Origin: a phage
Length of the DNA stretch: 64,000 nt
Sequence record: PZ674595.1
Strand: one strand, 5' to 3'
Shown: positions 2,825 to 27,596 of the stretch, piece after piece
Layout of the letters: every line of letters begins with the position of its first letter
Position numbering within the stretch: position 1 is the stretch's first letter
The notes under the pieces: generated by a model
Databases searched by the model: none
The model's input: only the letters and a program-made list of their open reading frames with translations
What the model was told of the DNA's origin: nothing
Translations under genes and position numbers: made by a program

Positions 2825-3028
2825 GTGCGTAAAGGATGTTTCGGCTCTCTTATCGCTGCTTCTGAAACTGGCAAGGCTTGTCTGGGGTGTCCAGACAAGC
2901 CCGATTGTCACCAATCAGCAAAAGAAGTTGCGATTTCGATGTATGGGAAGTTCGTAGGCTTCCCCAATGACAAAATCAAAAAAACCAGAAAGGTAAAAAC
3001 ACATGAAGGCACTGATGGTTCGAACTGA
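2825..3028 (+). CDS. small Cys-rich hypothetical protein (GTG start, overlaps dnaE-like start)
   Basis: 67-aa ORF with CLGCPDKPDC motif; no clear RBS; overlaps next gene out of frame. Confidence 0.25.
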   Translation: MRKGCFGSLIAASETGKACLGCPDKPDCHQSAKEVAISMYGKFVGFPNDKIKKTRKVKTHEGTDGSN

Positions 3029-6000
3029 CTTCTCACTTGGGGAGTCGGCTCTAAAAGCAGAAAACGCGGTGAAGATTGCCAGAGAAGCTGGCTACACCGC
3101 TGTAATTTCAGCAGATAGCATGAATATTGCAAGTGTTATTCCACTACAACGTGCCGCTGGTGACGACATGGCGGTTATTTGTGGTGTGAAACTAAACATT
3201 GTTGATGATCCCACATACGAGCACCGGGCTAAACTTGCTAAAGAATCTATGAGATGTATGGAATCATTAGAGCGGGGACGTAACTACTCGTTTACCGCTC
3301 TAATTAAAAATGAGCAAGGATATCGCGACATCTGCGAACTAATGACGGCGGCCAACACACGAGAACAGTTCTACTTTGTACCGCGTCTCTCGCTCGAACA
3401 GTTGGTTTCTACATATGCCAAAGGCAACATCATCCTGCTTACTTCCGACATCGGTAGCGTGTTCCAACGCAACGATTTTGCAAAAATCATAAGCACACTG
3501 ATTACAGCGGGTGGAAAAGACAACTTCTATAGTGTGGTTTATCCGCACCCTACCCCATTCTACGACCAGATTAACGTCCGGGCGATGAAAGTCGCCAGCG
3601 CATTGAAAATAGAGCCAGTGGCGTTCTATCCCGCTTATTACGAATCGATCGACGATGCAGACATTAAAGACATTGCGCACATGGTTACGAACAACATCAA
3701 AATCGACCAGCCGCATCGTCTGCGTATCCCCCACCAGCGAGATAACGCCGTCAATGGTCGCCGCCATCTCCTTGAGGCGCTTAAAGCCTTCTCCGTTCGC
3801 ATGGATGTGCCGGTAACAGCTGCAATGGCCTCAACAACGCAGGATACCATTATCGATGCCTGCACATGGCGCTGGCATGAATTGCCGCCAGCACTGCCAA
3901 AGATGGCAGACGACGAGCCTGCAACGCTTATGAAACTGGCTGTTGCAGGGCTGCGTAAACGTCTTACCACAAAAGAGTTTGGCTACACACCACCTGCTTC
4001 TGAGAACAGGGTTTATGTTGAGCGGCTAAAGTACGAAATGGACACGCTGACTCGCCTGGGATTCTGTGGTTACTTCCTGATGGTGCGCGATCTGATGAAT
4101 CATAGTCGTGAAACTGGCATTCCCGTTGGGCCTGGTCGTGGTTCCTCTGCCGGTTCTCTGGTGGCGTGGTGCATAGGCATAACCAACGTCGACCCAATCC
4201 GTCACGGTCTTCTGTTTGAGCGTTTCATCAACCCTGAGCGTCTCGACTTGCCAGATGCGGATTTGGACTTCAGCCAGGCACGTCGCCATGAGGTGATCGA
4301 GTATCTGAATGAACGCTACGGCGAAGATTACGTTGCAGGCATTCCGAACTTCACCTACCTGGGCGCAGCCTCTGCACTACGTGACACCGCTCGTATTTAT
4401 GGTGTGGAGTCCGCAGATATGGCGGTATCAAAAGAACTGAAGAACGCTGAGGATGATAGCCTTCCATTGGAAGAACTGCGCGAACAACTGGCAAGTCTCG
4501 ACAAATACGCAACAAAATATCCTGATGCATTCAATGCAGCCTGCAAGTTACAAAGCCTTATGCGTGGCTTTGGTAGACATGCGGCAGGGATGATCGTAGC
4601 AGGTGTTCCTCTGACAGAACGTACACCGGTTGAGCGCCGTGGTGACGCGCGTTGTATCGCATTTGACAAGCGTTACTGCGAGGCTATGGGCCTAATTAAG
4701 CTGGACGTGCTTGGCCTGGCAACTCTCGATTTGCTCGATAGTGCAAAACGCTACATAAAAGAGAACACAGGTGAAGATATCAATCTTGATGCCATTTCTC
4801 TTGAAGATCGCAAGGTGCTGGATGGTTTTGCTGCTGGGTACACTCAAGGTGTTTTCCAGCTTGAATCAGGCCCAATGCGCAAGCTGCTTAAAGATTTAGG
4901 TGGTGGAATTGAGCCAATGAGCTTTAAAACGGTCGTCGCTACAACTGCGCTCTTCCGGCCGGGGCCAATTCAATCAGGCATGTTGGATGACTATGTTTCT
5001 GTCGCCAAAGGCTTTATGACGCCGGAATCATTACACCCCGTTCTTGATGAACTTACCGCGGAAACAAATGGCGTGATTCTCTATCAGGAACAGACGATGA
5101 ACGCGACTCGATTGCTTGCCGGCTTCACAATGGCTGAAGCTGACGCTGTGCGTTCCGCAATCGGTAAGAAGAACATGGAAAAAATGAAGAGCATGGGCGA
5201 GAAGTTCATCGTTCAGGCTCAAGCTGGCTGGATAGACGTTGAGCTGGAAGATGGCACTACACAGCGCATTCACCGTGCGGAACATTTTAAATGCGAAGAC
5301 GGAACTCTGAAAACTGTCGAAGAGGCACTTGAGCACGGCGCAAAACTACCTATAAACGCAGTACGCGTTACAGCGTCACATCCAGGGCTATCAGAGATGA
5401 AAGCGAAGGAGATCTGGACCGCATTTGAGAAAAACGGAGCCTATCAGTTCAATAAATCACACTCCGTTGCTTATTCTTTAATCAGTTATCAGTCTATGTG
5501 GCTAAAGACGCACTACCCTGCTGAGTTCTTCGCAGCTGCGCTCACCATTCTGGGCGAGGATAAGCATCAGGGGCTGGTGAAGGATGCGCTGACCTATGGC
5601 ATTCGCGTATTGCCACCAGACGTTAATGTGTCATCTAACCGAATTGAGATCCGCACACTCGAAGACGGCAGTCAGGCACTGTATGCGCCATTCTCTGCTG
5701 TGAAAGGCTGTTCTGAAAATGGTTGTCAGGCAATTATGCGTGCGCGTGAGAAAGTTGGTGGCAAATTCGAGTCAGTGGCACAATTCGATGAAGCGGTCGA
5801 GAAGCGTGCATGTAACAGTCGTGTACGCGAGTCGCTTCATAAAGTAGGGGCTTTTGCGTCAATTGAGCCAGGCAGTCTGCCAGCAACTGATCCTGAACGA
5901 CTGCGCGACCAGGCTGAGCTGATGGGCAATCTCATCATTGACGCTGTTAAAGCATCACGTCCGTTCGAAATGAATCCTAAGCGTTCTGCCGAAATCAACG

Positions 6001-6521
6001 TACTCATGACACGTATGGCGGCTGAAATGGGCTTGGGTGAGGAGTTGATACGCCCGACTATTGGTATTAAACCCAAAATCATGATCATTCTGGACAATGC
6101 GAACGGCAATGACGCTCGTACCGGCTACTTCATGGAGAACGGATACGACGACTTTAAGGCAAAACTACTGACAGTTGGAGATCTGCGCATGGGCGATCTT
6201 TATGTCACGGGTGTTTGTAAGAAGGTTAAGGACAAAGAGAAAGACTATACCAAAGACGAGATAGGCCAGTTCACAGACTTTATGCGGGAAGAAATTAATC
6301 TTGTACGACCAACCTACATTTTGACGTGTGGTAGTCGTTCAACCGCACTATTTAACAATAAGAGTAAACCATCAGATCTGATTGGTCGTAAGGAGTACTT
6401 CCCAGAGCTTGATGCAACCGTCTTCTACGGATTTAACCCGAATATCCTGTACTTCCGACCGGAAGAAGGAGAGCGACTGGAGGCCATTCTGGCTGATATC
6501 GCGGAGACAATAAATAAGTAA
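3003..6521 (+). CDS. dnaE: DNA polymerase III alpha subunit homologue (DnaE-like)
   Basis: 1172-aa ORF; DnaE-type motifs GVFQLESGPMRKLL and FNKSHSVAYSLISYQSMWLKTHYPAEFFAAAL; N-terminal PHP-like region; RBS AAAGGTAAAAACAC before ATG. Confidence 0.9.
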   Translation: MKALMVRTDFSLGESALKAENAVKIAREAGYTAVISADSMNIASVIPLQRAAGDDMAVICGVKLNIVDDPTYEHRAKLAKESMRCMESLERGRNYSFTALIKNEQGYRDICELMTAANTREQFYFVPRLSLEQLVSTYAKGNIILLTSDIGSVFQRNDFAKIISTLITAGGKDNFYSVVYPHPTPFYDQINVRAMKVASALKIEPVAFYPAYYESIDDADIKDIAHMVTNNIKIDQPHRLRIPHQRDNAVNGRRHLLEALKAFSVRMDVPVTAAMASTTQDTIIDACTWRWHELPPALPKMADDEPATLMKLAVAGLRKRLTTKEFGYTPPASENRVYVERLKYEMDTLTRLGFCGYFLMVRDLMNHSRETGIPVGPGRGSSAGSLVAWCIGITNVDPIRHGLLFERFINPERLDLPDADLDFSQARRHEVIEYLNERYGEDYVAGIPNFTYLGAASALRDTARIYGVESADMAVSKELKNAEDDSLPLEELREQLASLDKYATKYPDAFNAACKLQSLMRGFGRHAAGMIVAGVPLTERTPVERRGDARCIAFDKRYCEAMGLIKLDVLGLATLDLLDSAKRYIKENTGEDINLDAISLEDRKVLDGFAAGYTQGVFQLESGPMRKLLKDLGGGIEPMSFKTVVATTALFRPGPIQSGMLDDYVSVAKGFMTPESLHPVLDELTAETNGVILYQEQTMNATRLLAGFTMAEADAVRSAIGKKNMEKMKSMGEKFIVQAQAGWIDVELEDGTTQRIHRAEHFKCEDGTLKTVEEALEHGAKLPINAVRVTASHPGLSEMKAKEIWTAFEKNGAYQFNKSHSVAYSLISYQSMWLKTHYPAEFFAAALTILGEDKHQGLVKDALTYGIRVLPPDVNVSSNRIEIRTLEDGSQALYAPFSAVKGCSENGCQAIMRAREKVGGKFESVAQFDEAVEKRACNSRVRESLHKVGAFASIEPGSLPATDPERLRDQAELMGNLIIDAVKASRPFEMNPKRSAEINVLMTRMAAEMGLGEELIRPTIGIKPKIMIILDNANGNDARTGYFMENGYDDFKAKLLTVGDLRMGDLYVTGVCKKVKDKEKDYTKDEIGQFTDFMREEINLVRPTYILTCGSRSTALFNNKSKPSDLIGRKEYFPELDATVFYGFNPNILYFRPEEGERLEAILADIAETINK

Positions 6522-9022: not shown

Positions 9023-10051
9023 ATGTCTAAGACATTACTTGATTTGCTTAACAAAACTCGTGAAGACATTGCCGCCAAACGTGGCAACAACGTTGATCTG
9101 ACTCGCTTAAAAGACGGCGTCAACTATATCCGCATCTTCCCGAATAAAGACGACCCAAACGGTAAGTTCTTCCAGACTTTCGGTATGCACTACGTTAAGT
9201 ATCAGAACGAGGAAGGTAAAGAAGCAACCAACGCTTATATTTGTGAGCAACATACTCACGGTCGCGCTTGTCAGCTATGCGAAATGGTTATGGAAGGTCG
9301 CGCTCGTCACAAGGGTAACAAAGCAATGGAAGAACGCATCGGTCAAATGCGTGCCACTCCTCGCTACCTGGTCAACGGCATTCTTTCTGCTCGTGAGGAT
9401 TTCGCAGATGCTGAGAAATGCCAGTTAATCGAGCTGCCGTCTACTGTATTCGATGATATCTGCAAAGCAATCACCGAAGACATCGCTGATGATATCGGCA
9501 ATCCACTGAGCAAAGAGGAAGGCTACGCATTCCTGATTAAACGTACTGGCTCTGGTCGCGATACCAAATATGACGTCTCGCCTAAGCGTAAAGTCTACAA
9601 AGGCGATATCGAAGATAAATTCTGGAACACCCAGCATGATCTGATCGCATACGCAAATCAGGCTGATGAAACTCGTCTTCTGTCGACAGTTCGCACTATG
9701 GGTCGTCTGATTGGCATCGCTGCACCAACTGCCGCAGCATCTGCACCAGCAATTTCCTCAACCGCGAAAACATCGGCTGCGGCACTACCTGGATTTGGCT
9801 CTGTCACTGGTCATACAGAAGGAGCGACGGCTGTAGCAACCGCGCACACACCGGCTTCTGAACCAACCAGTCTGGTTGATGAAGAAATCCTCCGTGCCGT
9901 TGAAACTGAATTTAAACCAGAAGCAAGTTCCGCTGCCGTTGCAGTATCAGTCAAAGAGTCTGAAGCAGTCGCAGCGACATCTGTAGCAGCCGCATCTGCG
10001 ACGGAAGATGAAGGTCTGGATGACCTACTGAGAGAGCTGGACTCTCTGTAA
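9023..10051 (+). CDS. single-stranded DNA-binding protein, T4 gp32-like
   Basis: Cys-x2-His-x5-Cys-x2-Cys cluster (CEQHTHGRACQLC) as in the gp32 zinc subdomain; Ala/Ser-rich acidic C-terminal tail ending DDLLRELDSL; RBS AAGGAGAAACAC. Confidence 0.6.
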   Translation: MSKTLLDLLNKTREDIAAKRGNNVDLTRLKDGVNYIRIFPNKDDPNGKFFQTFGMHYVKYQNEEGKEATNAYICEQHTHGRACQLCEMVMEGRARHKGNKAMEERIGQMRATPRYLVNGILSAREDFADAEKCQLIELPSTVFDDICKAITEDIADDIGNPLSKEEGYAFLIKRTGSGRDTKYDVSPKRKVYKGDIEDKFWNTQHDLIAYANQADETRLLSTVRTMGRLIGIAAPTAAASAPAISSTAKTSAAALPGFGSVTGHTEGATAVATAHTPASEPTSLVDEEILRAVETEFKPEASSAAVAVSVKESEAVAATSVAAASATEDEGLDDLLRELDSL

Positions 10052-10070
10052 TCCCATTACGTGACCAGTA

Positions 10071-10097
10071 AGGCGTCTACGGACGCCTTACTTTTTG
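10071..10097 (+). terminator. Rho-independent terminator
   Basis: AGGCGTC-TACG-GACGCCT followed by TTTTT; same stem sequence as terminators at 12404 and 13541. Confidence 0.7.
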
Positions 10098-10111
10098 GAA
10101 GGAATGTACCG

Positions 10112-11056
10112 GTGAATTATCTCTTCGTAGATGGCAATAGCCTGGGTTATTACCACCAACAATCTGACAAATTGCACAACGGCGAAATGGAAGTACAGGC
10201 TGCTTTCGGCTTTGTTAAGAACGTCCGTCGTTATGCCTCCATCCTCCATGCCCGACCTATGATTCTTTGGGATGGATTTAGTGACAAGCGTCGCGACTTT
10301 TACCCGGACTACAAAGCAAATCGCGACGACGATCCTGATATGAAAAAGATGAAGGAAGGCTTTGCTATCCAGAAGCCATACATCCTCAAAATGATGACCG
10401 CGCTTGGAGTTACCCAACTCATTGCAAAAGATGCAGAAGCGGATGATCTGGCCGGGCTGCTGGTATCCCGCATGGCACCGCAGCCAACCGTTGAACACAT
10501 CTATCTGTTAACAGGCGATAGCGACTGGCTTCAGTTAGTTCGTGAAAACGTAAGCTGGGTAAGCCTGCGTGAAGACGCCAAAAACAAGCAGGTTAATTTT
10601 GAGCAATTTGCGGAGCTGACAGGATTCGCCACGCCTCGCGCATTTTTGGAAGCAAAAGCATTACAAGGCGATAACTCGGACAACATTAGCGGTGTTGGAG
10701 GCATTGGTGCTGGCGGTGCGAAAGAGCTGCTGCATGAATGGGGAAGTGTCGCAACGATGGTACGCGGCATCAACGACGGCTCAATCGTGGTTAATAAAGG
10801 GCGTCATAAGACCGCCTTCAACAAACTAGCGAAGAATGCCTTCAACGAGAAAACAGGCTGTCGAATGCTCGAAGCGTTCAAGAGAAACATCACGCTAATG
10901 AACCTGATTGAGACGAAGTTTCCGCCTACCGAAATCGAAACAATCAAAGGCAATCGTGACGTGAAAGCATTCGAGCAACTGTGCTACGAGCTGAATTTCC
11001 GTTCGTTCCTTGAAGACCTTGAAGTGTTTGTTCTTCCATTCGAAAGGTATTGCTAA
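10112..11056 (+). CDS. 5'-3' exonuclease / flap endonuclease (T4 RNase H / Pol I 5'-nuclease family)
   Basis: VNYLFVDGNSLGYY N-terminus, acidic-cluster motifs ADDLAGLL and GDSDWLQL; GTG start at 10112 with RBS GGAAGGAA; the track ORF start at 10061 lies inside the upstream terminator. Confidence 0.8.
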   Translation: MNYLFVDGNSLGYYHQQSDKLHNGEMEVQAAFGFVKNVRRYASILHARPMILWDGFSDKRRDFYPDYKANRDDDPDMKKMKEGFAIQKPYILKMMTALGVTQLIAKDAEADDLAGLLVSRMAPQPTVEHIYLLTGDSDWLQLVRENVSWVSLREDAKNKQVNFEQFAELTGFATPRAFLEAKALQGDNSDNISGVGGIGAGGAKELLHEWGSVATMVRGINDGSIVVNKGRHKTAFNKLAKNAFNEKTGCRMLEAFKRNITLMNLIETKFPPTEIETIKGNRDVKAFEQLCYELNFRSFLEDLEVFVLPFERYC

Positions 11057-11322
11057 TGCTTAAATCGATTATCAATGGCGCTACAACCACCCCTGCCCAA
11101 CTAGCAAAAGAGATTGTCTTTTATCACGGTGAGTACGCTGTCATCGCACTGCCGTCAATTCTAGGCGCTGCCGGAATGAAAGCGACAGATCGCGAGTTTG
11201 GATTAGTCAGCGAGCAGGTCGTAAAAATCCTCGCTCGTGTATCCAGACTCCTTAACCACGATGCGATTGTATTCGATGAATCCGCCGCTTTAAAACGAAT
11301 CAACGAAACAAAAGGAGCCTGA
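11056..11322 (+). CDS. hypothetical protein
   Basis: ATG overlapping the stop of the upstream gene (TAATG); RBS GAAAGG. Confidence 0.35.
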   Translation: MLKSIINGATTTPAQLAKEIVFYHGEYAVIALPSILGAAGMKATDREFGLVSEQVVKILARVSRLLNHDAIVFDESAALKRINETKGA

Positions 11323-11324
11323 TC

Positions 11325-12398
11325 ATGGCAAAAGGAAAATCCGCACTGGCACTTGCTCTGAAAAAGAAAATCGGTAGCAACGACGAAATTCAGAAAGTAA
11401 CTCATTGGATTGATACAGGCTTTCCACCGTTAAACAAAGCTATTTCTGGTCGTTACGATGGCGGCTTCCCATGTGGTCGTATCGTCGAAGTATTCGGTCC
11501 TCCAAGTGCAGGGAAAACGTTCCTTGCAACAGCAGCGATGATCTCCGCTCAAAAACAAGATGGTCTGGCGGTATTCCTCGATCATGAAAACAGTTTTGAC
11601 GTTGGCCTGGCTGTCGCCAATGGCCTGAACGCAGATGAGGATGACGGTCAGTGGGTATACAAGCAGCCAGATACCTTCGAAGACTCTGTAGAGTTGATCG
11701 GCACAATACTTAAATTGGTTCGTGATGAAGAGCTTATCCCCGAATCAGCACCAATCTGTATCGTGGCTGACTCTCTTGCGTCTATGGTTCCGAACTCCAA
11801 AGCCGAGAAGTTCGAAAAGATGGCTGAAGGCACTGCCAAAGACAAAGATCAGCTAAACATGAACGACAATACGGCACTGGCTCGTGCGACGAGTGCGAAC
11901 TTCCCTACTCTGGCTTTGTGGGCACGCAAATACAACGCCTGCATCATCTTCTTGAATCAGGTTCGCACAAAAATCGGTGTAATGTTTGGCGACCCTACTA
12001 CGTCGCCAGGTGGAGATTCACCGAAGTTCTACGCTTCTGTACGTATCCGTCTTGGTGCATCGGTGATGAAGGATGGTAAAGAGAAGATCGGCCAGGACGT
12101 AGGCGCAGAATGCATCAAAAACAAAGTTGCACCACCGTATGGCAAATGCACCTGGAAATTCTACTTCGATCCTACTCGTGGCCTCGACGTTATCGAATCG
12201 CTCGTCGAGTACATGCTGGAAGAAGGATACCTGCCAAAGAACGCCAGCGGGCGAGTTGAAATTGGTGACAAGAAATACACCAAATCGCAGATCGTCGAGA
12301 TGTATCGGGAGAAGCCACTGGCTGAAATCATTGCGGCTTTGCAGGCAATCGACGACCGAAGAGCAAAAGACAACCCCACCGAGTCAGTAGAAGAGTAA
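11325..12398 (+). CDS. RecA-superfamily recombinase (UvsX/RecA-like)
   Basis: Walker A GPPSAGKTFLA, RecA-like core; RBS AAGGAG. Confidence 0.85.
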   Translation: MAKGKSALALALKKKIGSNDEIQKVTHWIDTGFPPLNKAISGRYDGGFPCGRIVEVFGPPSAGKTFLATAAMISAQKQDGLAVFLDHENSFDVGLAVANGLNADEDDGQWVYKQPDTFEDSVELIGTILKLVRDEELIPESAPICIVADSLASMVPNSKAEKFEKMAEGTAKDKDQLNMNDNTALARATSANFPTLALWARKYNACIIFLNQVRTKIGVMFGDPTTSPGGDSPKFYASVRIRLGASVMKDGKEKIGQDVGAECIKNKVAPPYGKCTWKFYFDPTRGLDVIESLVEYMLEEGYLPKNASGRVEIGDKKYTKSQIVEMYREKPLAEIIAALQAIDDRRAKDNPTESVEE

Positions 12399-15184: not shown

Positions 15185-15625
15185 GCTCATTATCCACTGT
15201 AGTCAGTAACAAAACCTTCCTACATATCTGCTAACCACTGTAGCGAGTAGACAGCCTTTCATTCGCATCAAACAACCACTATGGTGAGTATTGGAGTGAG
15301 ATGTCCAGCGGGTATCCACTATGGTGAGTAAGCCTTTGCTGTTTTCAGTGGATATCCACTCGCCACAGTGGATACGCTCAAAGATGAGGGCGACAACAAC
15401 CACTATAGACAGTAAATTTTCCAAGATACCCAGTGACCACTAACCTCGCAGCCCTTGTTTCATCAGTGTTAGTGATCACTAACATTTAATTCAGTATTTG
15501 CATTCTACTGCCTACAGTGGTTATCAACAGATAACGATACTCACTATAGTGGATAGCGAATTACAGATATAAGTAAGGCTCACTACAGTGGATAGTGAGC
15601 CTTACTACTAACTACAGTGGTTGGG
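15185..15625. repeat. iteron array downstream of repA (P1 incA-like copy-control repeats)
   Basis: About ten copies of CCACTATAGTGG-type motifs (e.g. ATCCACTATGGTGAGTA, TCACTATAGTGGATAG, CTACAGTGGTT) in both orientations. Confidence 0.7.
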
Positions 15626-16681
15626 CTATTTGCGAGTCTTTGCCTTGCGCAACTCTTCGAGAAGCGCCAGTTCTTCTTTACTCAACATGACCATTTTGCC
15701 TTCTTTTTCGTCAGGCACAACGTCGATAATGTCATCTTGATTCTCATCTGGGAGGCTATATTCCGTCTCATCATTATCGATTTTTGTTGATATTTGTGCC
15801 TGGCGTAACTTTGGCCGCCTATAGTGGATGACGAAGTAGACCGAGTTTCCGCGCTTAACTTCCGTGTAATCGAGATATCCTATCTCTCGCAGCTGTTCCA
15901 TAGCCTTTCTTACCGTCGCATTCTGAGTAATAGTGCGACTTGTCAGATTAAGTCTGGCGCGTAAACGGGCTAGTGATATTGGTGCCGGATCAGGCGGCAA
16001 ACTTTCAATAAAAGTATAAAGCGCCTGAGCGGATTCTTTTCTTGAGAGTTCGTTTATAGCCCGGAGTTGCAGAAGAACCTTTTTGTCGAACTGGTAGAGT
16101 TCGAAAATCTTGGGATCTGCTTTCAGTTCGACCGTATCGTGCTTGACACTATATTTTGCCGTTTGCACAAGATGCGTTACGTAAAACTCATCAGAGCCTT
16201 TGCTACGGAACGAGATGGTATTTGTGGCAATACGGCTTAGCGAACTGTCCAGGCGTTTGCGTAACTTCGCTGATGACCTGGCGGTCGGAATGCCACACAG
16301 CCTTACAAACTCAACGAACGGCAACGTGACAGTATCGCCAACGACCTTGTGTTTGGCAAACGCGTGGATTATTCCCACCCACGTTTTAAAGTCGTTATCC
16401 ATATCAAGCCGAAGGCCAGAGATCCTTATGTCTTCGTACCCTTCGGCTTTTGCCAGAGACAGCTGTTTGAGTTCAGCAGAGGCATCCATAGAGACCATTT
16501 GCCCCTTTCTTCCTCTGGATGTCGATTTCAGCGTCGGAACGAAGAGGCCCAGACGCATCAAAGCAACAGGCTGAACAGTGTTATTAGTGTTAGGAACCAA
16601 CGTAACAACTTCGCCTGTCTTTTTATCTGTTTCTGAAAATGCTTCAACGATCGCTATGTTTTTATTGCCGTTTTCGCTCAT
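15626..16681 (-). CDS. repA: plasmid replication initiator, P1 RepA-like
   Basis: 351-aa ORF; [45 protein letters not shown] and [16 protein letters not shown] match P1 RepA as I recall it; flanked on both sides by iterons. Confidence 0.75.
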
Positions 16682-16689
16682 TCCAAATG

Positions 16690-17345
16690 TCTCTTGTTAT
16701 TCGACGGCTTTGGTGGCCTTTGCTGATTACAGTGGATAGTAGCACTCATCACAGCGGTTATCCTACCGTCTATAGTGGTTTTTCTCCTCTCTATAGTGGT
16801 TGCTTTGCTCCCTATAGTGGATTATTCGCTCTCTATAGTGGATATCGATCATGTCTGAAGGCAGATGGCACAACGGTTTGAGGTGGGCGGGGATCTTATT
16901 GGGTCTTTATGGGTCTCTTTGGTTCTCTTTGTGATCTGAATTACTGGATCGGGCCTGTGGATAAAAATCAGAGGATTTCAAGAACAGGTAACTCTACTCT
17001 TCTGTGGATATTTAAGGACATAAGAATCATGACTAAGAGTAGAGTTTAAAATATATCTATGTATATCAGTATGTTAATGAAGAATTAAGTCATTAAGTTA
17101 TCCATAAAAGACAATGTGCTCTACTCTCTACAGTGGATATATACAGCTCTCCAGAGTGGTTGTTTTACTCTTCATAGCGGTTATTCAGCTCTCTACAGAG
17201 GTTTCTTTGCTCTCCATAGTGGATGGCAACACCCTTTCAGACCAGTAACCGCAACGGCTAGAGGCGATCGGGGATCTCTTTGGATCTTCTATTTGATCTT
17301 ACTTGGGATCTCTTATTTGGATCTATCCAGTGGATAACTGGGATA
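16690..17345. other. origin of plasmid replication (oriV): two iteron arrays, DnaA boxes, GATC cluster, AT-rich stretch
   Basis: 21-22-bp direct repeats CTCTATAGTGG at 16740-16860 and 17116-17235; DnaA box TGTGGATAA at 16956-16964 and near-match at 17003-17011; six GATC within 17266-17323 as TGGATCT repeats; AT-rich 17040-17110; overlapping track ORFs 16639-16881 and 17116-17337 judged non-coding. Confidence 0.7.
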
Positions 17346-18323: not shown

Positions 18324-19409
18324 ATGACTTTGCCATACGGCGTCATTTCTGACTGCCACTACCATAAATGGGATGCGTTCTCCACGACGAACGCTGAGGG
18401 GCTTAACTCCAGACTTGAAATACAGTTGGAAGCAACGAAAGAAGCAGCCATCGCCATGAAGAAGGCCGGTTGTAAGTACATGTTGGTTGCCGGTGATACA
18501 TTTCACGTCCGAGGAACTGTGTCCCCTTCTGTTTTGCATTACGTAACTGAAACGTACAAGTGGATTATCAACGAGCTTGATCTGACAGTAGTAATGCTGG
18601 CCGGTAATCACGATCTTGAAACCAACGATTCAGTATATAGCGCCAACGCAGCAGCATCGCTGAGTTCTATCGGCGTGGTAATCGTATGTGGCAAGCGCCC
18701 ACACTCAATAAAAATTGGTGATGTGACTGTCCACCTGATTAGCTGGCGTAACAATCATGCGGAGCTTATCAGCGATCTGAAAGCATTACGTAAGAGCGTA
18801 GAAGGTGATAATCATGACGTTGTTATCCATACATCCATTAACAAAGCCATTCCAACAATGCCTGACGTCGGTATCGATGCGCAGGAGTTAAAGGATATCG
18901 GCTTTCGTCTCGTGCTTAGTGGGCATTACCACAACCACAAAGAGGTCATTCCTGGAGTTATCAGTGTCGGTGCACTGACTCATCAAAATTGGGGAGATGT
19001 TGGATCTCTGGCTGGCTACATGATCGTAAACCCGGACGGCAGTTTCAGTCACTACGAAACCAGTGCGCCTAAATTCATTAACCTGGAAGATGATGTTGCT
19101 GATGACCAAATTCGCGGCAACTACGTGCGTTTCCGCGCCGTAATTGAGAACGATGAAGAAGGCATTAAGTACCAGAACATCCTCAAAACAATGGGTGCAA
19201 AAGGTGTCGTGTGCAACTTCATCCGTAAGTCATCAATGATGGAAGGTACAGCCAGCACAACTGAAACCAGCAAAATCGATAGCCTGGGAGAGTCGGTATC
19301 TGCTTATTGCAAGATTGTCCACGATACTGACGGCGGATTTGATCTGAGCAAATTGGATATTTTGTGTCAGGAAATCCTCACCGAAGCGGAGAGTTCGGAG
19401 GCTGTGTGA
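18324..19409 (+). CDS. sbcD: SbcD/Mre11-like nuclease (calcineurin-type phosphoesterase; T4 gp47-like)
   Basis: Phosphoesterase motifs ISDCHYH, VAGDTFH, AGNHD, SGHYH; RBS AAAGGAAAAACAC. Confidence 0.8.
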   Translation: MTLPYGVISDCHYHKWDAFSTTNAEGLNSRLEIQLEATKEAAIAMKKAGCKYMLVAGDTFHVRGTVSPSVLHYVTETYKWIINELDLTVVMLAGNHDLETNDSVYSANAAASLSSIGVVIVCGKRPHSIKIGDVTVHLISWRNNHAELISDLKALRKSVEGDNHDVVIHTSINKAIPTMPDVGIDAQELKDIGFRLVLSGHYHNHKEVIPGVISVGALTHQNWGDVGSLAGYMIVNPDGSFSHYETSAPKFINLEDDVADDQIRGNYVRFRAVIENDEEGIKYQNILKTMGAKGVVCNFIRKSSMMEGTASTTETSKIDSLGESVSAYCKIVHDTDGGFDLSKLDILCQEILTEAESSEAV

Positions 19410-19642
19410 AGCAAAGTCGTTATGGGAGCTTTCGAGACTTTGCCATCACGATGAAAAGACTTGAACGAGGCCAGACGGTGATGTTTCACAAGCCCTACCC
19501 GCCACAAGGAAATCCCGTAGCGTTTTATCTTGGAAGGTTAACAAGAAAAGGCGTATTGAGGCGCAGATCCTTCCCGGCGCATACGGAGTTCAGATTGAAA
19601 GAAGGCCAAAAGCTAACACACGGTATCAGAGGTGTTATATGA
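19406..19642 (+). CDS. small basic hypothetical protein between sbcD-like and sbcC-like
   Basis: GTG at 19406 preceded by GGAGG; overlaps sbcD-like stop and sbcC-like start (ATGA). Confidence 0.3.
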   Translation: MKQSRYGSFRDFAITMKRLERGQTVMFHKPYPPQGNPVAFYLGRLTRKGVLRRRSFPAHTEFRLKEGQKLTHGIRGVI

Positions 19643-21555
19643 AGTTTTTAAAGCTCCAGGTTGAGAATTTTATGGCTATCGCCAGCGCGGAGGTCGAGTT
19701 AGATCAGCGTGGTTTAGTGCTTATTCAGGGTGTTAATAGTGATGATAGTTCCGCATCAAGTAATGGCTCTGGAAAGTCAACTCTAATGAATAGCCTGATG
19801 TGGTGTCTTTATGGCGAAACAGCTCATGGTGTGAAGGGTGACGATGTGTTGTCTACCGACCATGAAAAGAACTGTCGTGTTGCAGTAACCATCGAGGATG
19901 AAGGCAAGAGATACGCAATCATTCGTCACCGTAAACACAAAGAGTTCAAAAATCGTCTTATCGTTCGTGGTGAAGATGGCGATATGACGAAAGGCAAAGA
20001 TGCGCTGACGCAGGAGTTCGTCGAGCGTCTGATCGGTGCATCTAAAGAGGTTTTCATGGCTTCCATCTATGCGAGCCAAGAAGCTATGCCAGATTTACCT
20101 GGAATGTCCGACAAAAACCTCAAAACCATCGTAGAAGAAGCCGCTGGCGTTGACAGACTGACACGCGCCTACGCTATTGCTCGTGAGCGAGCTAATGCAG
20201 CTGCCGCACGTATGGATGTGGTTAAAACCAAATTGGAGTCGACAATCTCGACCATTGAGGCAACACAGTCAGAAATTGAGTCAGCGAAAGCCTCCTCTGA
20301 ATCATGGGAGCAAGAGCGTTCTAAACGTTATGACGATGCCCTGGCTGGGCTGGCCAGTGCCGAAGTTGAGTTAACGGAAGTTGAACTTGAGATCCGCACT
20401 CTTCCCGAACAGATACGTGATACCGAGAAGGCAATCGAAAGTGAGCGCAAAAAGTTAGCCTCAAAAGAAGAACATGACGCCAAGTTGCTCAAAGTTCGTG
20501 GTGCGATAACTGATATTCGGGCAAGCATCAAAGCTACAGAAAATAGTCAGGCTGATGCAATGAGCCGCGCGCGTAATTTTAAGACCAAAGCAGAAGAGGT
20601 TGGTACTAAAGTGGGATCACCATGCCCTACTTGTGGCAAAGCCTACTGCGAAGAAGATCTATCAACGGTGAAGGAGAATTTCATTGAACAAGCACGTCAG
20701 GAAATTGGTCAGGCGAAGACACTTGCAGAGGCAATGGCTAAACACAAAACGAATCTTGAGAAAGCGTTAAGCATTGAGTCTGCCCTTGTTAAAACGACAC
20801 CTGATGTAACGGCTATCATTGCCCGGATTGAAGAGCTTACGAAACAACTCTCATCTTTGCGTCATCGTGAGAAGGAGGTTGTTGCTATTGAGTCTCTTGT
20901 GACTCGTGCTCGTACTGAGGTCGATCGTATATCAAAAGAGATTAATCCGTTTATTGCTCTTATCGCCAGACACGAAGATAACCTGGTATCCAGTAAGTCT
21001 ACCTTCAAGTCCTTAAAAGATGAGTTGAAGGCTATTCAGGAACAAACGTTGCTATTGGAAAAAGCTCGTCAGGTCTACTCTCCTGCCGGGGTGCGTTCTC
21101 ATATTTTGACGTCTGTTACGCCTTTCCTGAATACACGCACTGCCGAGTATCTCAATACGTTGTCTGACGGGAATATTACTGCTGAGTGGTCGACGATGGA
21201 TGTCACTAAAAAAGGTGAGTATCGCGACAAATTCAACATTAGTGTGCAGAAGAAAGGTTCAAGTAAGTCGTTCCAGACCCTCTCTGGTGGTGAGAAGCGG
21301 AAGGTTCGCATTGCGTGTTCTTTGGCATTGCAGGATCTGGTTAGTAACCGGGCGAGTAAAAACATCGATTTGTTTATCGGCGACGAAATTGACGATGCAC
21401 TCGATACAGCCGGTCTTGAACGCCTCATGGGTATTCTGGAGTCCAAAGCTCGCGAGCGAGGTACTGTGCTGATTATCTCCCATAAAGAGATGAAGTCATG
21501 GTTCCGGGAAACTATTACGCTGGAAGTTAAAGAGGGGCGCAGCTATGTCGTTTAA
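19639..21555 (+). CDS. sbcC: SbcC/Rad50-like ATPase (T4 gp46-like)
   Basis: Walker A NGSGKST, long coiled coil with CxxC hook (CPTCGKAYC), signature LSGGEKRKV, Walker B FIGDEIDDALD. Confidence 0.85.
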   Translation: MKFLKLQVENFMAIASAEVELDQRGLVLIQGVNSDDSSASSNGSGKSTLMNSLMWCLYGETAHGVKGDDVLSTDHEKNCRVAVTIEDEGKRYAIIRHRKHKEFKNRLIVRGEDGDMTKGKDALTQEFVERLIGASKEVFMASIYASQEAMPDLPGMSDKNLKTIVEEAAGVDRLTRAYAIARERANAAAARMDVVKTKLESTISTIEATQSEIESAKASSESWEQERSKRYDDALAGLASAEVELTEVELEIRTLPEQIRDTEKAIESERKKLASKEEHDAKLLKVRGAITDIRASIKATENSQADAMSRARNFKTKAEEVGTKVGSPCPTCGKAYCEEDLSTVKENFIEQARQEIGQAKTLAEAMAKHKTNLEKALSIESALVKTTPDVTAIIARIEELTKQLSSLRHREKEVVAIESLVTRARTEVDRISKEINPFIALIARHEDNLVSSKSTFKSLKDELKAIQEQTLLLEKARQVYSPAGVRSHILTSVTPFLNTRTAEYLNTLSDGNITAEWSTMDVTKKGEYRDKFNISVQKKGSSKSFQTLSGGEKRKVRIACSLALQDLVSNRASKNIDLFIGDEIDDALDTAGLERLMGILESKARERGTVLIISHKEMKSWFRETITLEVKEGRSYVV

Positions 21556-22940: not shown

Positions 22941-25256
22941 ATGATAAGCATCGTAAAACGTAACGGCCAAACAGAGCCGTTATCCGAAGAAAAATACAAC
23001 CGCGTCGTAATGTATGGCGTAGAAGGCATTCGTGGTGTAAGCGCATCCGCTGTAGCAATGGGAGCTGCGGCCAGCATTTTTGATGGGATTACCACCAGCC
23101 AGTTGCATGAGGCTTTGGTTAAATCTGCCGCTGATTTGATCTCACCAGAAGCACCAAATTACTCACAGGTGGCTGCCCGCCTGAACATTTTTAAAATCCG
23201 CAAAGATGCCTTCGGTCGTTACGACTATCCGAACTTCTACCAACACATTGTCAAGAACGTTAACAAGGGCGTTTATGACAAGGATTTGCTGACACATTAT
23301 TCGTTTGAAGAGATCGAAGAACTCGGCAATTACATTAAGCCGAAACGTGACGATCTTTTTGGCTATGCAGCTACGGTGCAGTTGCAAAGCAAATACCTCG
23401 TTCAAAACCGTGTTACTGGTGAGATTCATGAGGGGCCGCAACATATCTATATGCTGGTAGGCATGTGTCTGTTCCAGAATTGGGAAGACGACTGCGCTGG
23501 CAAAACACGTATGGAGATGGTCAAAGGTTTCTATGACGTTACAAGTACGTTCAAACTGTCTCTGCCCACACCAATCATGGCCGGCGTCCGTACTCCAACC
23601 CGTCAGTTCTCCAGTTGTGTGCTGATTGAGTCTGGCGATAGTCTGAAAGGGATTAGTGCAGCTTCAGCCGCAATTATCGACTACGTTTCACGTCGTGCTG
23701 GAATTGGTATTGGTTTTGGCCGTATCCGTGCGCTGGGCAGCGAGATCCGCAATGGTGAAGCCACCCATACTGGAGTTATTCCATTCCTGAAGCATTTCCA
23801 GACGGCTGTTAAATCTTGTTCGCAAGGTGGTGTTCGTGGTGGCGCAGCAACAGCGTTTTACCCGATCTGGCATCTTGAAGTTGAAAGTCTGCTGGTGGTG
23901 AAAAATAACCGTGGTATTGATGAAAACCGCGTTCGCCATCTTGATTACGGCGTCATGAGTAACCGTCTAATGTACCGTCGACTCGTCAGAAGCGAGAACA
24001 TCACTCTGTTCAGCCCGCATGATGTGCCTGATATGTACGAAGCCTTCTTCACAGACCAGGAGCTGTTTGAAAAGCTGTACCATAAATACGAAGCCGATGA
24101 TTCAATTCGCAAGAAGTCAGTACCTGCCATTGAGCTGTTCTCATCTCTGATGCAGGAACGAGCGTCCACGGGCCGAATTTATATTGCGAACGTCGATCAT
24201 ATTAACGAGCATGGCGCTTTCATTCCTGCTCTTGCACCTGTTCGCCAGTCAAACCTGTGCATGGAGATCACTCTACCCACTCGTCCACTGGCATTTACCG
24301 ACGACCCGAACGGTGAGATCGCGCTATGCACTTTATCCGCTTTTAACCTCGGAGCCATCCGTTCACTGGAGTCTCTTAAAGAGGTGGCGTTCTATGCCGT
24401 TGCTGCACTGGATTCGTTACTGGATTATCAAGACTATCCGATGGAGGCAGCCGAAGTGCCTGCCAAAGCTCGTCGTAGCTTGGGAATTGGTGTAACCAAC
24501 TTTGCTTATTACCTGGCAAAGAATGGCGTTCGTTATTCTGATACCGCTGGCAATAAACTGGTGCATGAAACGTTCGAAGCTATCCAGTATTACCTTCTTG
24601 ATGCCAGCTGCCGACTTGCTGAAGCAAAAGGTGAGTGTGACTGGTTTGAGCAGACCAAGTACGCAATTGGTCAGTTGCCGATCGACCATTACCGTTCTTC
24701 ATTAGACGAAAGTGGCGAAACCAACTTTGAGTTAAAGATGCCGTGGGAAGAACTGCGTGAACGTATTGCAAAATACGGCCTTCGCAACTCCACACTGACG
24801 GCACAAATGCCATGCGAGACTTCCAGCCAGATCACTAATTCCACCAACGGCATCGAACCGCCTCGTGGCCCGGTGTCGGTGAAATCTTCTAAGGACGGCA
24901 TCGTTAAGATGGTCGTGCCTGAGTTTGAAAAACTGAAGGAACAGTATGAATACCTGTGGGATATGCCGGACAACCGCGGCTATCTGACAAAGGTGGCGAT
25001 CATCCAGAAGTTCTTTGACCAGGCTATTTCAGCCAATACCAACTATGACCCTTCTCGCTTTGAAGGCGATAAAGTCCCAATGATGACGCTACTGTCAGAT
25101 TTGCTTCTCGCCTACAAGATGGGAGTTAAAACGCTTTACTACCACAACACCAGAGATGGGGCAGGAAAGCGTGATGACGACGAACCGCAGAATCCACTCA
25201 CGCAAGCTGTAGCCGTCGAGCCAGAAGATGAGTGCGACGGAGCCTGCAAAATCTGA
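22941..25256 (+). CDS. nrdA: ribonucleoside-diphosphate reductase class Ia alpha subunit
   Basis: 771 aa; long identical stretches to E. coli NrdA as recalled (YLVQNRVTGEI, PTPIMAGVRTPTRQFSSCVLIE, QGGVRGGAAT, PVRQSNLC). Confidence 0.95.
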   Translation: MISIVKRNGQTEPLSEEKYNRVVMYGVEGIRGVSASAVAMGAAASIFDGITTSQLHEALVKSAADLISPEAPNYSQVAARLNIFKIRKDAFGRYDYPNFYQHIVKNVNKGVYDKDLLTHYSFEEIEELGNYIKPKRDDLFGYAATVQLQSKYLVQNRVTGEIHEGPQHIYMLVGMCLFQNWEDDCAGKTRMEMVKGFYDVTSTFKLSLPTPIMAGVRTPTRQFSSCVLIESGDSLKGISAASAAIIDYVSRRAGIGIGFGRIRALGSEIRNGEATHTGVIPFLKHFQTAVKSCSQGGVRGGAATAFYPIWHLEVESLLVVKNNRGIDENRVRHLDYGVMSNRLMYRRLVRSENITLFSPHDVPDMYEAFFTDQELFEKLYHKYEADDSIRKKSVPAIELFSSLMQERASTGRIYIANVDHINEHGAFIPALAPVRQSNLCMEITLPTRPLAFTDDPNGEIALCTLSAFNLGAIRSLESLKEVAFYAVAALDSLLDYQDYPMEAAEVPAKARRSLGIGVTNFAYYLAKNGVRYSDTAGNKLVHETFEAIQYYLLDASCRLAEAKGECDWFEQTKYAIGQLPIDHYRSSLDESGETNFELKMPWEELRERIAKYGLRNSTLTAQMPCETSSQITNSTNGIEPPRGPVSVKSSKDGIVKMVVPEFEKLKEQYEYLWDMPDNRGYLTKVAIIQKFFDQAISANTNYDPSRFEGDKVPMMTLLSDLLLAYKMGVKTLYYHNTRDGAGKRDDDEPQNPLTQAVAVEPEDECDGACKI

Positions 25257-25362
25257 CATATGGTGGGGGATATCCCCACCTTCTCTTTGATTTGTAAACC
25301 TTGTTTAAACACATAAGATAACAACTTGTTTAAACGCACCAAAAAAGAAAAAGGAAAAACAC

Positions 25363-27548: not shown

Positions 27549-27596
27549 CTGTCTGGTCTTGTTCTCTCAATAAATGTAAACTCACGCAATGAATAA

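What the first reader, a model, noticed from the sequence alone, without database searches (positions are those of the whole stretch)
3003..6521. Element encodes its own Pol III core trio (alpha, epsilon-like, theta-like) dispersed over 40 kb, alongside T4-type recombination proteins
Seen in sequence: DnaE-like alpha (3003-6521), DnaQ-like DEDDh exonuclease (30750-31307) and theta homologue (42869-43120), plus gp32-like SSB, UvsX/RecA-like, UvsW-like helicase, SbcCD (gp46/47-like), RNase H and flap nuclease, but no obvious replicative helicase, primase or clamp in this window. Inference: a hybrid replication strategy (host-type polymerase core with phage-type recombination-dependent initiation) in addition to the RepA plasmid origin. 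Whether the three Pol III-like subunits form a dedicated core is unknown.
Basis: partly seen in the sequence, partly recalled or inferred. Interest (0 to 1): 0.4.

Follow-up and report, generated by a model that had tools for sequence, protein, structure and literature searches.

The report
Phage-plasmid polymerase genes, not a trio
The three Pol III-like genes are real, but they sit in a well-known SSU5/pHCM2-type phage-plasmid and do not look like one dedicated enzyme core: the polymerase and exonuclease are old phage replication genes, while the theta-like gene is phage P1's Hot, an optional cargo gene known to bind the host's own proofreader.

Summary
All three ORFs are intact at the stated coordinates and each homology is highly significant. 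The window is an E. coli SSU5/pHCM2-type phage-plasmid, 100% identical at these loci to plasmid pM-64-1161.

- **Alpha.** It has the PHP-Pol3-(HhH)2 core, but the OB fold and tau-binding domain are replaced by a family-4 UDG-fold domain with degenerate catalytic motifs. This variant was already noted in 2014 for Y. pestis and S. enterica plasmids.
- **Epsilon-like protein.** It is only the 185-aa DnaQ-type catalytic domain. It lacks the C-terminal segment through which E. coli epsilon binds alpha, and so do all 120 listed homologues (102-204 aa).
- **Theta-like protein.** It is P1 Hot (76/83 residues identical). Its region is missing from a sibling plasmid that is otherwise 99.1-99.98% identical. 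By genus counts it is rare or absent in the Klebsiella and Yersinia relatives that carry dnaE.

Alpha and the exonuclease are co-inherited as far out as Nickievirus phage phiK7B1. A DnaB-like helicase, a primase and a ligase lie just outside the window; no clamp or clamp loader was found.

Verdict: observation confirmed, "dedicated core trio" not supported. The system is known and of low to moderate interest.

The parts
3003..6521 (+). dnaE-type C-family DNA polymerase (1172 aa) with architecture PHP-Pol3-(HhH)2-UDG-like. It has no OB fold and no tau-binding domain.
   Evidence: Pfam domains. NCBIfam DnaE scores 675 bits, below the equivalog cut-off of 1002, with a UDG_fam4 hit at residues 1053-1168. 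It aligns to Taq alpha only as far as residue 953. The acidic residues D420, D422 and D555 are conserved. It is 100% identical to dnaE of plasmids pCTX and pM-64-1161 and 84% identical in DNA to phage SSU5.
5220..5375 (+). Insertion of about 50 aa in the fingers domain (residues 740-791), absent from E. coli and Taq alpha. It marks the site where a relative's dnaE is split.
   Evidence: Gap in the alignments to E. coli and Taq alpha. In locus L006 the gene is split into 787-aa and 389-aa ORFs by a free-standing NUMOD4/HNH homing endonuclease gene at this point.
5910..5924 (+). Conserved Q-A-E-L-M motif (residues 970-974; family consensus D-Q-x-E-L-[ML]-[PG]-G-L) in the linker between (HhH)2 and the UDG-like domain. 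It is a candidate beta-clamp-binding motif.
   Evidence: Among 111 aligned sequences (the query plus 110 diverse relatives), Q is kept in 99 and L in 89. The motif fits the known pentapeptide consensus and lies in the same relative position as E. coli QADMF. This is an inference and was not tested.
5955..6518 (+). C-terminal UDG-fold domain of alpha (residues 985-1172), probably not a glycosylase.
   Evidence: AF2 model with pLDDT 96.7. The best Foldseek match is family-4 UDG 4zbx (TM 0.82, E 9e-12). Motif A GEAPG reads LDNANG, the uracil Asn is replaced by Gly, and motif B HP reads NP; this protein has no Fe-S cysteines. The domain is found at the C-terminus of DnaE in most of 133 protein clusters.
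30750..31307 (+). Stand-alone DnaQ-type DEDDh 3'-5' exonuclease (185 aa). It corresponds to the epsilon catalytic domain only.
   Evidence: Pfam RNase_T 6e-22. Its NCBIfam epsilon score of 71 is below the 196 cut-off. It aligns to epsilon residues 11-176. The model has pLDDT 96.3 and matches epsilon186 and the DinG exonuclease domain with TM about 0.8. Of 155 homologues, the 120 listed are 102-204 aa long. PHROG 192 is annotated 'DNA polymerase exonuclease subunit'.
42869..43120 (+). hot, the homologue of theta from phage P1. It is accessory cargo here.
   Evidence: 76 of 83 residues are identical to P1 Hot (PDB 1SE7/2IDO, E 1.3e-46). DNA is 96-97% identical to P1 hot, over the ORF only. The region is absent from the colinear sibling plasmid pCTX.
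43596..43985 (+). humD-like gene (UmuD'-type S24 peptidase), with upstream DNA that aligns to the P1 region holding the LexA box. It is the second P1-related segment next to hot.
   Evidence: 87% DNA identity to P1 humD plus its upstream region (window 43548-43975). P1 annotation. Annotated as an S24 peptidase in sibling plasmids.
9023..12398 (+). Cluster of gp32-like ssDNA-binding protein (9023-10051), 5'-3' flap exonuclease (10061-11056) and RecA-family recombinase (11325-12398).
   Evidence: Pfam gp32 1.7e-66, 5_3_exonuc_N 2.2e-24 and RecA 2.2e-42. The recombinase is closer to bacterial RecA (6e-35) than to T4 UvsX (1e-5).
15335..17245 (-). Plasmid replicon: repA (15626-16681, minus strand) flanked by iteron arrays at 15335-15622, 16719-16848 and 17120-17245.
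   Evidence: Pfam Rep3_N and Rep3_C. Sibling plasmids are typed IncFIB. Repeats of about 20-21 bp share the core CTCTATAGTGGAT.
18324..21555 (+). SbcD-like metallophosphoesterase (18324-19409) and SbcC/Rad50-like ATPase (19639-21555).
   Evidence: NCBIfam Rad50/SbcC hits at 4e-26 for the ATPase. The phosphoesterase has only a weak PdeM hit at 3.6e-5 and takes its name from the sibling annotation.
22941..30259 (+). dNTP-supply cluster immediately upstream of the exonuclease: nrdA, nrdB, a MazG-like protein, thyA, DHFR and a nucleotide kinase.
   Evidence: Annotation of the colinear sibling pCTX. PRA-PH/MazG hit and kinase hits.
34001..34648 (+). RNase HI.
   Evidence: Pfam RNase_H 1.6e-44.
58358..59917 (-). 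SF2 DEAD/DEAH helicase, XPB/UvsW-like.
   Evidence: Pfam ResIII, DEAD and Helicase_C. PDB matches: XPBII 3e-12, T4 UvsW 5e-8.

Best explanation
The window belongs to an SSU5/pHCM2-type phage-plasmid of E. coli. It keeps two replication systems: an iteron/RepA plasmid replicon for the prophage state, and a large phage replication and dNTP-supply module, presumably for lytic growth.

In that module the polymerase is a phage lineage of DnaE. It keeps the PHP-Pol3-(HhH)2 core and the catalytic aspartates. It has lost the PHP metal site, the OB fold and the tau-binding domain, and it carries a catalytically degenerate UDG-fold domain instead.

Inferences about how the polymerase works:
- It cannot plug into the host clamp loader through tau.
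- It probably gains processivity from the host beta clamp, through the conserved Q-x-E-L-M linker motif, and/or from the UDG-fold domain acting as a DNA-binding module.
- The separately encoded 185-aa DnaQ-type exonuclease is most likely its trans-acting proofreader. If so, it cannot attach the E. coli way, because it has no epsilon C-terminal segment.

The theta-like gene is not part of this machine. It is P1 hot, a small cargo gene acquired in a variable region next to humD. Its product is known to bind and stabilise the host's own epsilon.

Shown here: gene identities, domain architecture, absence of the epsilon tail, and the accessory status of hot. Inferred: use in lytic replication, the proofreading role, clamp use, and the target of Hot in this element.
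For: **Family identity.** dnaE is 100% identical to plasmids pCTX and pM-64-1161 and 84% identical to phage SSU5. 745 plasmid records carry it, almost all about 110 kb, non-mobilizable and IncFIB.

**RepA origin.** RepA plus flanking iterons.

**Alpha architecture.** Pfam and NCBIfam hits, no alignment past residue 953, and a UDG fold at TM 0.82. The literature already notes this variant (PMC3919608) and proposes UDG domains as intrinsic processivity factors in SPO1/T5 polymerases (PMC3201878). The PHP H-x-H motif reads M-V-R. The Q-x-E-L-M motif is conserved across 111 aligned sequences.

**Exonuclease.** It is the catalytic domain only and every listed homologue is 102-204 aa. Its fold is closest to epsilon186 and the DinG exonuclease domain. 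PHROG 192 is annotated 'DNA polymerase exonuclease subunit'. epsilon186 alone does not bind alpha (PMC2528190, PMC3664792).

**Co-inheritance of alpha and the exonuclease.**
- Their genus distributions in plasmids are similar: 745 and 707 records.
- In phage phiK7B1 (Nickievirus) both are present in the same gene order.
- Exonuclease homologues at 39-45% identity also occur in about 106-122-kb Rhizobium, Stenotrophomonas and Xanthomonas phages.

**Hot.**
- 76 of 83 residues are identical to P1 Hot.
- Similarity to P1 is confined to the ORF.
- It is missing from pCTX, which is otherwise 99.1-99.98% identical in the flanking blocks.
- Matches among plasmid records: 6 Klebsiella and 0 Yersinia for hot, against 277 and 63 for dnaE.

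**Rest of the replisome.** Helicase, primase and ligase lie outside the window.
Against: - No interaction was tested.
- The exonuclease lies 24 kb from dnaE, inside the nrdAB-thyA-DHFR-kinase cluster. That position would equally suit a nucleotide-salvage nuclease.
- The Q-x-E-L-M motif could be a structural element rather than a clamp-binding site.
- The conserved G-F-F-x-L-P tail of the exonuclease is modelled with high confidence, so it may be part of the fold rather than a free docking peptide.
- Hot might also bind the element's exonuclease, which is 30% identical to epsilon186. The interface residues could not be compared because the structure papers are not held.
- Whether this polymerase serves lytic replication, plasmid replication or both is unknown.
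Confidence: 0.65

Rival explanations
1. One reading: the three proteins assemble into a dedicated, element-encoded alpha-epsilon-theta core. Hot would bind the element's exonuclease, and the exonuclease would bind the element's alpha through some non-canonical contact.
For: All three genes are intact and co-resident. The exonuclease has the epsilon186 fold at 30% identity, and epsilon186 is the domain that Hot and theta bind (PMC3664792). The PHP metal site of alpha is degenerate, so an external proofreader is plausible.
Against: The exonuclease lacks the epsilon C-terminal segment. hot is absent from a near-identical sibling plasmid. By genus counts it is near-absent from the Klebsiella and Yersinia relatives that carry dnaE, and none of the SSU5-type phage records that match dnaE matches hot. 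The hot sequence is essentially P1's, and P1 encodes no polymerase or exonuclease and uses host Pol III.
Confidence: 0.07
2. The exonuclease is not a proofreader. It would be a DexA-like nuclease that degrades host DNA or oligonucleotides to feed the adjacent dNTP-synthesis genes, or it would serve recombination. The polymerase would then work without proofreading.
For: The gene sits directly after nrdA, nrdB, thyA, DHFR and a nucleotide kinase, 24 kb from dnaE, and the same placement after a thymidylate kinase is seen in phiK7B1. No alpha-binding element was identified. Some DnaE groups are thought to lack proofreading (PMC3919608).
Against: Its closest folds are replicative epsilon and the DinG exonuclease domain rather than oligoribonuclease-type enzymes. 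The PHROG annotation is polymerase exonuclease subunit. It is retained together with this DnaE lineage. A genome of about 110 kb replicated by a polymerase without proofreading would carry a high mutation load.
Confidence: 0.2
3. The polymerase is a damage-tolerance or mutagenic enzyme of the DnaE2 kind, working with HumD and Hot under SOS control rather than as the element's replicase.
For: It lacks the tau-binding domain, as DnaE2 does. HumD, with upstream DNA that aligns to the P1 LexA-box region, and Hot are in the same element.
Against: It scores higher on replicative DnaE models than on the error-prone model (675 vs 403 bits). It lies 37 kb from humD. No imuA or imuB was seen. It is embedded in a conserved replication module with helicase, primase, ligase, SSB and FEN, and that module is also present in a Nickievirus phage.
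Confidence: 0.05

Closest known systems
SSU5/pHCM2 supergroup of phage-plasmids (Salmonella phage SSU5, S. Typhi pHCM2, Y. pestis pMT1, E. coli pECOH89-like CTX-M plasmids)
   Same: The DNA is near-identical to E. coli members: 100% at dnaE and at the hot region to pM-64-1161, and 99.1-99.98% colinear with pCTX over most of the first 49 kb. It shares the IncFIB RepA with iterons, the same replication and dNTP module, and 84% DNA identity of dnaE to SSU5 (PMC7969092).
   Different: Only the cargo differs. This member carries P1-type hot in a variable region that pCTX lacks.
E. coli DNA polymerase III core (alpha-epsilon-theta)
   Same: Alpha shares the PHP, palm/thumb/fingers and (HhH)2 domains, with 33% identity over the whole alignment and the catalytic aspartates kept. 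The exonuclease shares the epsilon186 fold and the DEDDh residues. Hot is a true theta homologue that binds E. coli epsilon.
   Different: There is no OB fold or tau-binding domain in alpha, and no epsilon C-terminal segment or QTSMAF motif in the exonuclease. Alpha and the exonuclease score below the NCBIfam equivalog cut-offs. The three genes have different evolutionary histories.
DnaE variant with a UDG domain in place of OB and CTD ('DnaEX', Timinskas et al. 2014, PMC3919608)
   Same: It is exactly this architecture, reported as an extra polymerase in some Y. pestis and S. enterica strains, which are the pMT1/pHCM2 relatives. It is confirmed here by profile hit, model and fold search.
   Different: Added here: the domain's glycosylase motifs are degenerate. 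The domain is widespread at the C-terminus of phage DnaE (133 clusters), some relatives have the gene split by a homing endonuclease, and a conserved Q-x-E-L-M motif precedes it.
Phage P1 Hot (homologue of theta)
   Same: 76 of 83 residues and 96-97% of the DNA are identical, and as in P1 it lies close to humD.
   Different: In P1 it follows a late promoter and is followed by lxr on the other strand. Here only the ORF is shared, and it abuts the preceding small ORF, whose stop is 3 bases upstream. P1 has no polymerase of its own.
SPO1/T5-type family A phage polymerases with an N-terminal UDG-like domain followed by a 3'-5' exonuclease domain
   Same: They combine a UDG-fold module, a DEDD exonuclease and a polymerase. 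The PHROG 17 profile hits both the alpha C-terminal domain (profile positions 469-629) and the stand-alone exonuclease (672-786). The UDG domain has been proposed as an intrinsic processivity factor (PMC3201878).
   Different: There all three modules sit in one family A polypeptide. Here the polymerase is family C, the UDG module is C-terminal, and the exonuclease is a separate protein.

Membership tests
E. coli-type Pol III core (alpha-epsilon-theta) | Epsilon carries a C-terminal segment (residues about 181-243) that tethers it to the PHP domain of alpha. | tested here: not met
   The 185-aa protein aligns to epsilon 11-176 and ends there. The 120 listed homologues are 102-204 aa. epsilon186 alone does not bind alpha (PMC2528190).
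E. coli-type Pol III core (alpha-epsilon-theta) | Alpha has an OB fold and a C-terminal tau-binding domain. | tested here: not met
   There is no alignment to Taq or E. coli alpha beyond residue about 953. The C-terminus is a UDG fold.
E. coli-type Pol III core (alpha-epsilon-theta) | Each subunit scores above the curated NCBIfam cut-off. | tested here: not met
   Alpha 675 vs 1002; epsilon 71 vs 196; theta 104.7 vs 97, which is met, on a model of 'subfamily' type.
E. coli-type Pol III core (alpha-epsilon-theta) | The three subunits associate physically. | not testable with these tools
No multimer tool is available.
E. coli-type Pol III core (alpha-epsilon-theta) | The three genes are co-inherited. 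| tested here: not met
   Alpha and the exonuclease co-occur. hot is missing from the colinear sibling pCTX, and by genus counts it is rare or absent in Klebsiella and Yersinia plasmids.
C-family (DnaE) DNA polymerase | PHP, Pol3 core and (HhH)2 domains, with catalytic acidic residues. | tested here: met
   Four Pfam domains. D420, D422 and D555 align with the E. coli active-site aspartates.
DnaE-UDG variant (Timinskas et al. 2014) | A UDG-superfamily domain replaces OB and CTD. | tested here: met
   TIGR00758 5e-7, model pLDDT 96.7, 4zbx TM 0.82. Description in PMC3919608.
Family 4 uracil-DNA glycosylase (as an enzyme) | Motif A GE[AG]PG, uracil-specific Asn, motif B HP, and four Fe-S cysteines. 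| tested here: not met
   The motifs read LDNANG, Gly and NP, and this protein has no conserved cysteines. The fold is shared but enzymatic membership is not supported.
DnaQ-like DEDDh 3'-5' exonuclease | Exo I (DxE), Exo II (D) and Exo III (Hx4D) residues, and an RNase H-like fold. | tested here: met
   D9, E11, D99, H155 and D160 are invariant. Fold match to epsilon186 and DinG.
Theta/Hot family | Theta fold and sequence; binds the epsilon N-terminal domain. | tested here: met
   Sequence: Pfam 4.5e-34 and 92% identity to crystallised P1 Hot. Binding is inferred from P1 Hot (PMC3664792) and was not tested here.
SSU5/pHCM2 phage-plasmids | About 100-120-kb non-mobilizable IncFIB replicon with siphovirus structural genes and this replication module. 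| tested here: met
   Colinear at 99.1-99.98% with pCTX, which carries terminase, portal, capsid and tail genes. RepA plus iterons.
Beta-clamp client (alpha and exonuclease) | An exposed clamp-binding motif of the Qxx(L/M)(F/L) type. | tested here: inconclusive
   Alpha: Q970-A-E-L-M is conserved in the family. Exonuclease: a G-F-F-K-L-P tail lies at the same offset as epsilon QTSMAF but is modelled with high pLDDT. No binding test was possible.

The most novel reading that the evidence does not exclude
In the subset of SSU5-type elements that picked up P1 hot, Hot would bind not only host epsilon but also the element's own epsilon186-like exonuclease. That exonuclease would dock on the element's alpha through a non-canonical route: either the UDG-fold C-terminal domain, or side-by-side binding of both proteins to the two pockets of the host beta clamp. 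The result would be a tau-independent three-protein replicase assembled from parts of different origin.
Probability: 0.08. Interest if true: 0.5.

Novelty: already known. Interest (0 to 1): 0.25.

Why it matters
The result mainly corrects a tempting reading: three Pol III-like names in one element do not make a Pol III core.

What remains open is how a DnaE that lacks the OB fold and the tau-binding domain, and carries a dead UDG-fold domain, achieves processive and accurate synthesis of a 110-kb genome. It would have to do so with a proofreader that has no known tether, in elements that now spread CTX-M beta-lactamases in E. coli and Klebsiella.

A second question is why elements that rely on host Pol III (P1), and elements with their own polymerase, both carry Hot. 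Both questions can be tested with standard biochemistry. Neither would overturn current understanding.

Tried and rejected
- **Complex prediction by fused chain.** I built alpha 940-1172, a GS linker and the exonuclease, with a rank-paired alignment. An earlier block alignment misaligned the two halves and was discarded.
- **Epsilon-theta/Hot interface.** The structure papers (PMC1876720, PMC1482953) and the Hot genetics paper (PMC1196078) are not held. The HADDOCK paper gives no residue list. The theta-binding surface of the exonuclease could therefore not be compared.
- **Aligning the alpha linker to E. coli alpha.** A profile of the family's 940-1025 region aligns only to E. coli 877-893. 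The equivalence of Q-A-E-L-M to QADMF therefore rests on position and consensus. A pairwise MAFFT alignment instead pairs it with E. coli 'RAALM'.
- **Exonuclease tail as a free clamp-binding peptide.** This idea was weakened by high model confidence over residues 171-180.
- **Clamp and clamp-loader search.** Pfam, NCBIfam and PHROGs scans of the larger unassigned ORFs in the window, and of the helicase/primase neighbourhood, found none. Not every small ORF of the element was scanned.
- **Phage-plasmid literature.** The survey papers searched do not mention the polymerase.
- **DnaE2-type error-prone polymerase.** Considered and rejected on score and gene context.

Full report
**1.

The three ORFs are intact at the stated coordinates: 3003-6521 (1172 aa), 30750-31307 (185 aa) and 42869-43120 (83 aa).
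- Pfam finds PHP, DNA_pol3_alpha (8.9e-74), finger and HHH_6 domains in the first, RNase_T (6e-22) in the second and DNA_pol3_theta (4.5e-34) in the third.
- The SbcD-like metallophosphoesterase rests only on the sibling annotation and a weak PdeM hit.
- The recombinase is much closer to bacterial RecA (6e-35) than to T4 UvsX (1e-5). The helicase is XPB-like (3e-12) at least as much as UvsW-like (5e-8).

**2. What the element is**

- The dnaE gene is 100% identical to that of E. coli plasmids pCTX (NZ_CP047004) and pM-64-1161 (NZ_MT773673).
- It is found in 745 plasmid records, almost all non-mobilizable, mostly from Klebsiella, Escherichia, Enterobacter, Yersinia and Salmonella. It is 84% identical to Salmonella phage SSU5.
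- pCTX is colinear with the window at 99.1-99.98% over most of its first 49 kb. It carries terminase, portal, capsid and tail genes plus an IncFIB RepA.
- repA in the window is flanked by iteron arrays with the core CTCTATAGTGGAT.
- This is therefore a member of the well-described SSU5/pHCM2 phage-plasmid supergroup (PMC7969092).

**3. The alpha subunit**

- It aligns with Taq and E. coli alpha through PHP, palm, thumb, fingers and (HhH)2 up to residue about 953, and no further.
- The aspartates matching the E. coli active site are kept (D420, D422, D555).
- The PHP H-x-H motif reads M-V-R, so an intrinsic PHP exonuclease is unlikely. This is an inference from a pairwise alignment.
- It scores 675 bits on the NCBIfam DnaE equivalog, whose cut-off is 1002. 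Its last 120 residues hit family-4 uracil-DNA glycosylase.
- A whole-library HMMER search with the last 188 residues found 133 clusters. Most are the C-termini of 1080-1140-aa DnaE proteins or of about 390-aa C-terminal halves, with a few genuine stand-alone UDGs at the weak end.
- An AlphaFold model of the domain is very confident (pLDDT 96.7). Its best PDB match is Sulfolobus family-4 UDG (TM 0.82, E 9e-12).
- The glycosylase signatures are gone. GEAPG reads LDNANG, the uracil-reading Asn is Gly, HP reads NP, and the Fe-S cysteines that some distant relatives keep are absent here.
- The architecture is not new. [quoted passage not shown] Kazlauskas and Venclovas proposed such UDG domains as intrinsic processivity factors in SPO1/T5 polymerases (PMC3201878).
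- In the linker before the domain, the motif D-Q-x-E-L-[ML]-[PG]-G-L is conserved in 111 aligned sequences. It fits the beta-clamp pentapeptide consensus and sits where E. coli alpha has QADMF. This is a lead, not a test.

**4. The epsilon-like protein**

- It has all DEDDh residues and the epsilon186 fold (TM about 0.8, 30% identity).
- It consists of that domain alone. E. coli epsilon needs its extra 57 C-terminal residues to bind alpha, and epsilon186 does not bind alpha even weakly (PMC2528190, PMC3664792).
- The 120 listed homologues (of 155) are 102-204 aa stand-alone proteins, many on roughly 100-118-kb contigs from Enterobacterales, Halomonas and Acinetobacter.
- A short tail motif, G-[FLY]-[FY]-x-[LIV]-P, is conserved at the same offset from the last catalytic Asp as the epsilon clamp-binding motif QTSMAF. 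The model places it with high confidence, so it may simply be part of the fold.
- The gene follows nrdA, nrdB, thyA, DHFR and a nucleotide kinase. A DexA-like salvage role is therefore a real rival to proofreading.

**5. Alpha and the exonuclease travel together**

- The exonuclease is in 707 plasmid records with a similar genus spread to dnaE.
- Both genes recur in Pseudomonas phage phiK7B1 (Nickievirus): alpha at 34% identity over its full length including the UDG-like domain, and the exonuclease at about 40%. The local gene order is the same.
- Exonuclease homologues at 39-45% identity are also found in about 106-122-kb Rhizobium, Stenotrophomonas and Xanthomonas phages.
- This shows long joint retention within one phage replication module. 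It does not prove physical contact.

**6. The theta-like protein is P1 Hot and is cargo**

- 76 of 83 residues are identical to the crystallised Hot protein.
- The DNA is 96-97% identical to P1 hot, but only across the ORF. A second P1-like stretch covers humD and its upstream LexA-box region.
- pCTX lacks the window's 41817-43594 segment, hot included, although its dnaE is 100% identical and the flanking blocks are 99.1-99.4% identical.
- Only 11 plasmid records hold this region in the same context.
- hot matches 6 Klebsiella and no Yersinia plasmids, against 277 and 63 for dnaE. It matches none of the SSU5-type phage records that match dnaE.
- P1 itself has no polymerase and uses host Pol III, and Hot can substitute for theta in stabilising host epsilon. 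The simplest reading is that Hot acts on the host enzyme here too.

**7. The rest of the replisome**

- In pM-64-1161 and pCTX, a DnaB-like helicase (DnaB_C 3e-13), a Toprim/DnaG-like primase (PHROG 47, 7e-65) and an ATP-dependent ligase lie 14-18 kb beyond the window's start.
- No clamp or clamp loader turned up among the larger unassigned ORFs scanned. This fits reliance on the host clamp and/or on the UDG-fold domain.

**8. Verdict**

- The reading as a dedicated alpha-epsilon-theta core fails three of its defining features that could be tested: the epsilon tail, the alpha C-terminal domains, and co-inheritance of theta.
- The most likely picture is a phage DnaE plus a trans-acting DnaQ-type exonuclease in the phage replication module, a separate RepA replicon for plasmid maintenance, and Hot as optional cargo aimed at host epsilon.
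- The element and its unusual DnaE are already in the literature and databases, so novelty is low.
- The mechanistic questions are testable but of specialist interest: how this tau-less DnaE is made processive, and how, or whether, the exonuclease is coupled to it.

Noticed in passing
L006:2918-7170 (Logan ERR6938400 contig), corresponding to window 5220-5375: In a close relative, dnaE is split into 787-aa and 389-aa ORFs by a free-standing NUMOD4/HNH homing endonuclease gene. The split falls exactly at the roughly 50-aa fingers-domain insertion that the window's intact gene carries. The 389-aa C-terminal half stands for 1459 member sequences, so the split form may be common. Another relative (P0002) has an HNH endonuclease fused in frame near residue 945.
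   Followed up: partly
window 19-2822 (and L009:1-3374 in phage phiK7B1): A CobT-like VWA protein and an AAA_5 (CobS/MoxR-like) ATPase lie upstream of dnaE, separated from it only by a small overlapping ORF (2825-3028). The same order, with one small ORF between, is kept in the distant Pseudomonas phage phiK7B1. Their role next to the polymerase is unknown.
   Followed up: no
window 44023-47314: Host-type genes apbC (minus strand) and metG (methionyl-tRNA synthetase) are carried by the phage-plasmid directly after humD. No tRNA genes are in the window.
   Followed up: no
window 41817-43594: A variable region that differs between otherwise near-identical plasmids. Here it holds two unassigned ORFs, hot and a 130-aa ORF. 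pCTX has other small ORFs and an ISKox3 insertion at the same place.
   Followed up: partly
window 15335-15622, 16719-16848, 17120-17245: Three arrays of about 20-21-bp iterons (core CTCTATAGTGGAT) lie on both sides of repA, typical of an iteron-controlled IncFIB-type origin.
   Followed up: partly
window 30750-31307 (residues 175-181): The exonuclease family has a conserved G-F-F-x-L-P motif just after the last helix, at the same offset as the clamp-binding motif of E. coli epsilon. Whether it is a docking peptide or part of the fold is unresolved.
   Followed up: partly
plasmid collection, Yersinia records: 63 Yersinia plasmids match dnaE by megablast, but no Yersinia genus count is listed among the exonuclease matches by blastn. 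pMT1-type elements may therefore keep the polymerase without the exonuclease, or carry a very diverged copy.
   Followed up: no
window 26583-27452: A 289-aa protein with a MazG/PRA-PH-like NTP pyrophosphohydrolase domain lies between nrdB and thyA, as part of the dNTP-supply cluster.
   Followed up: no
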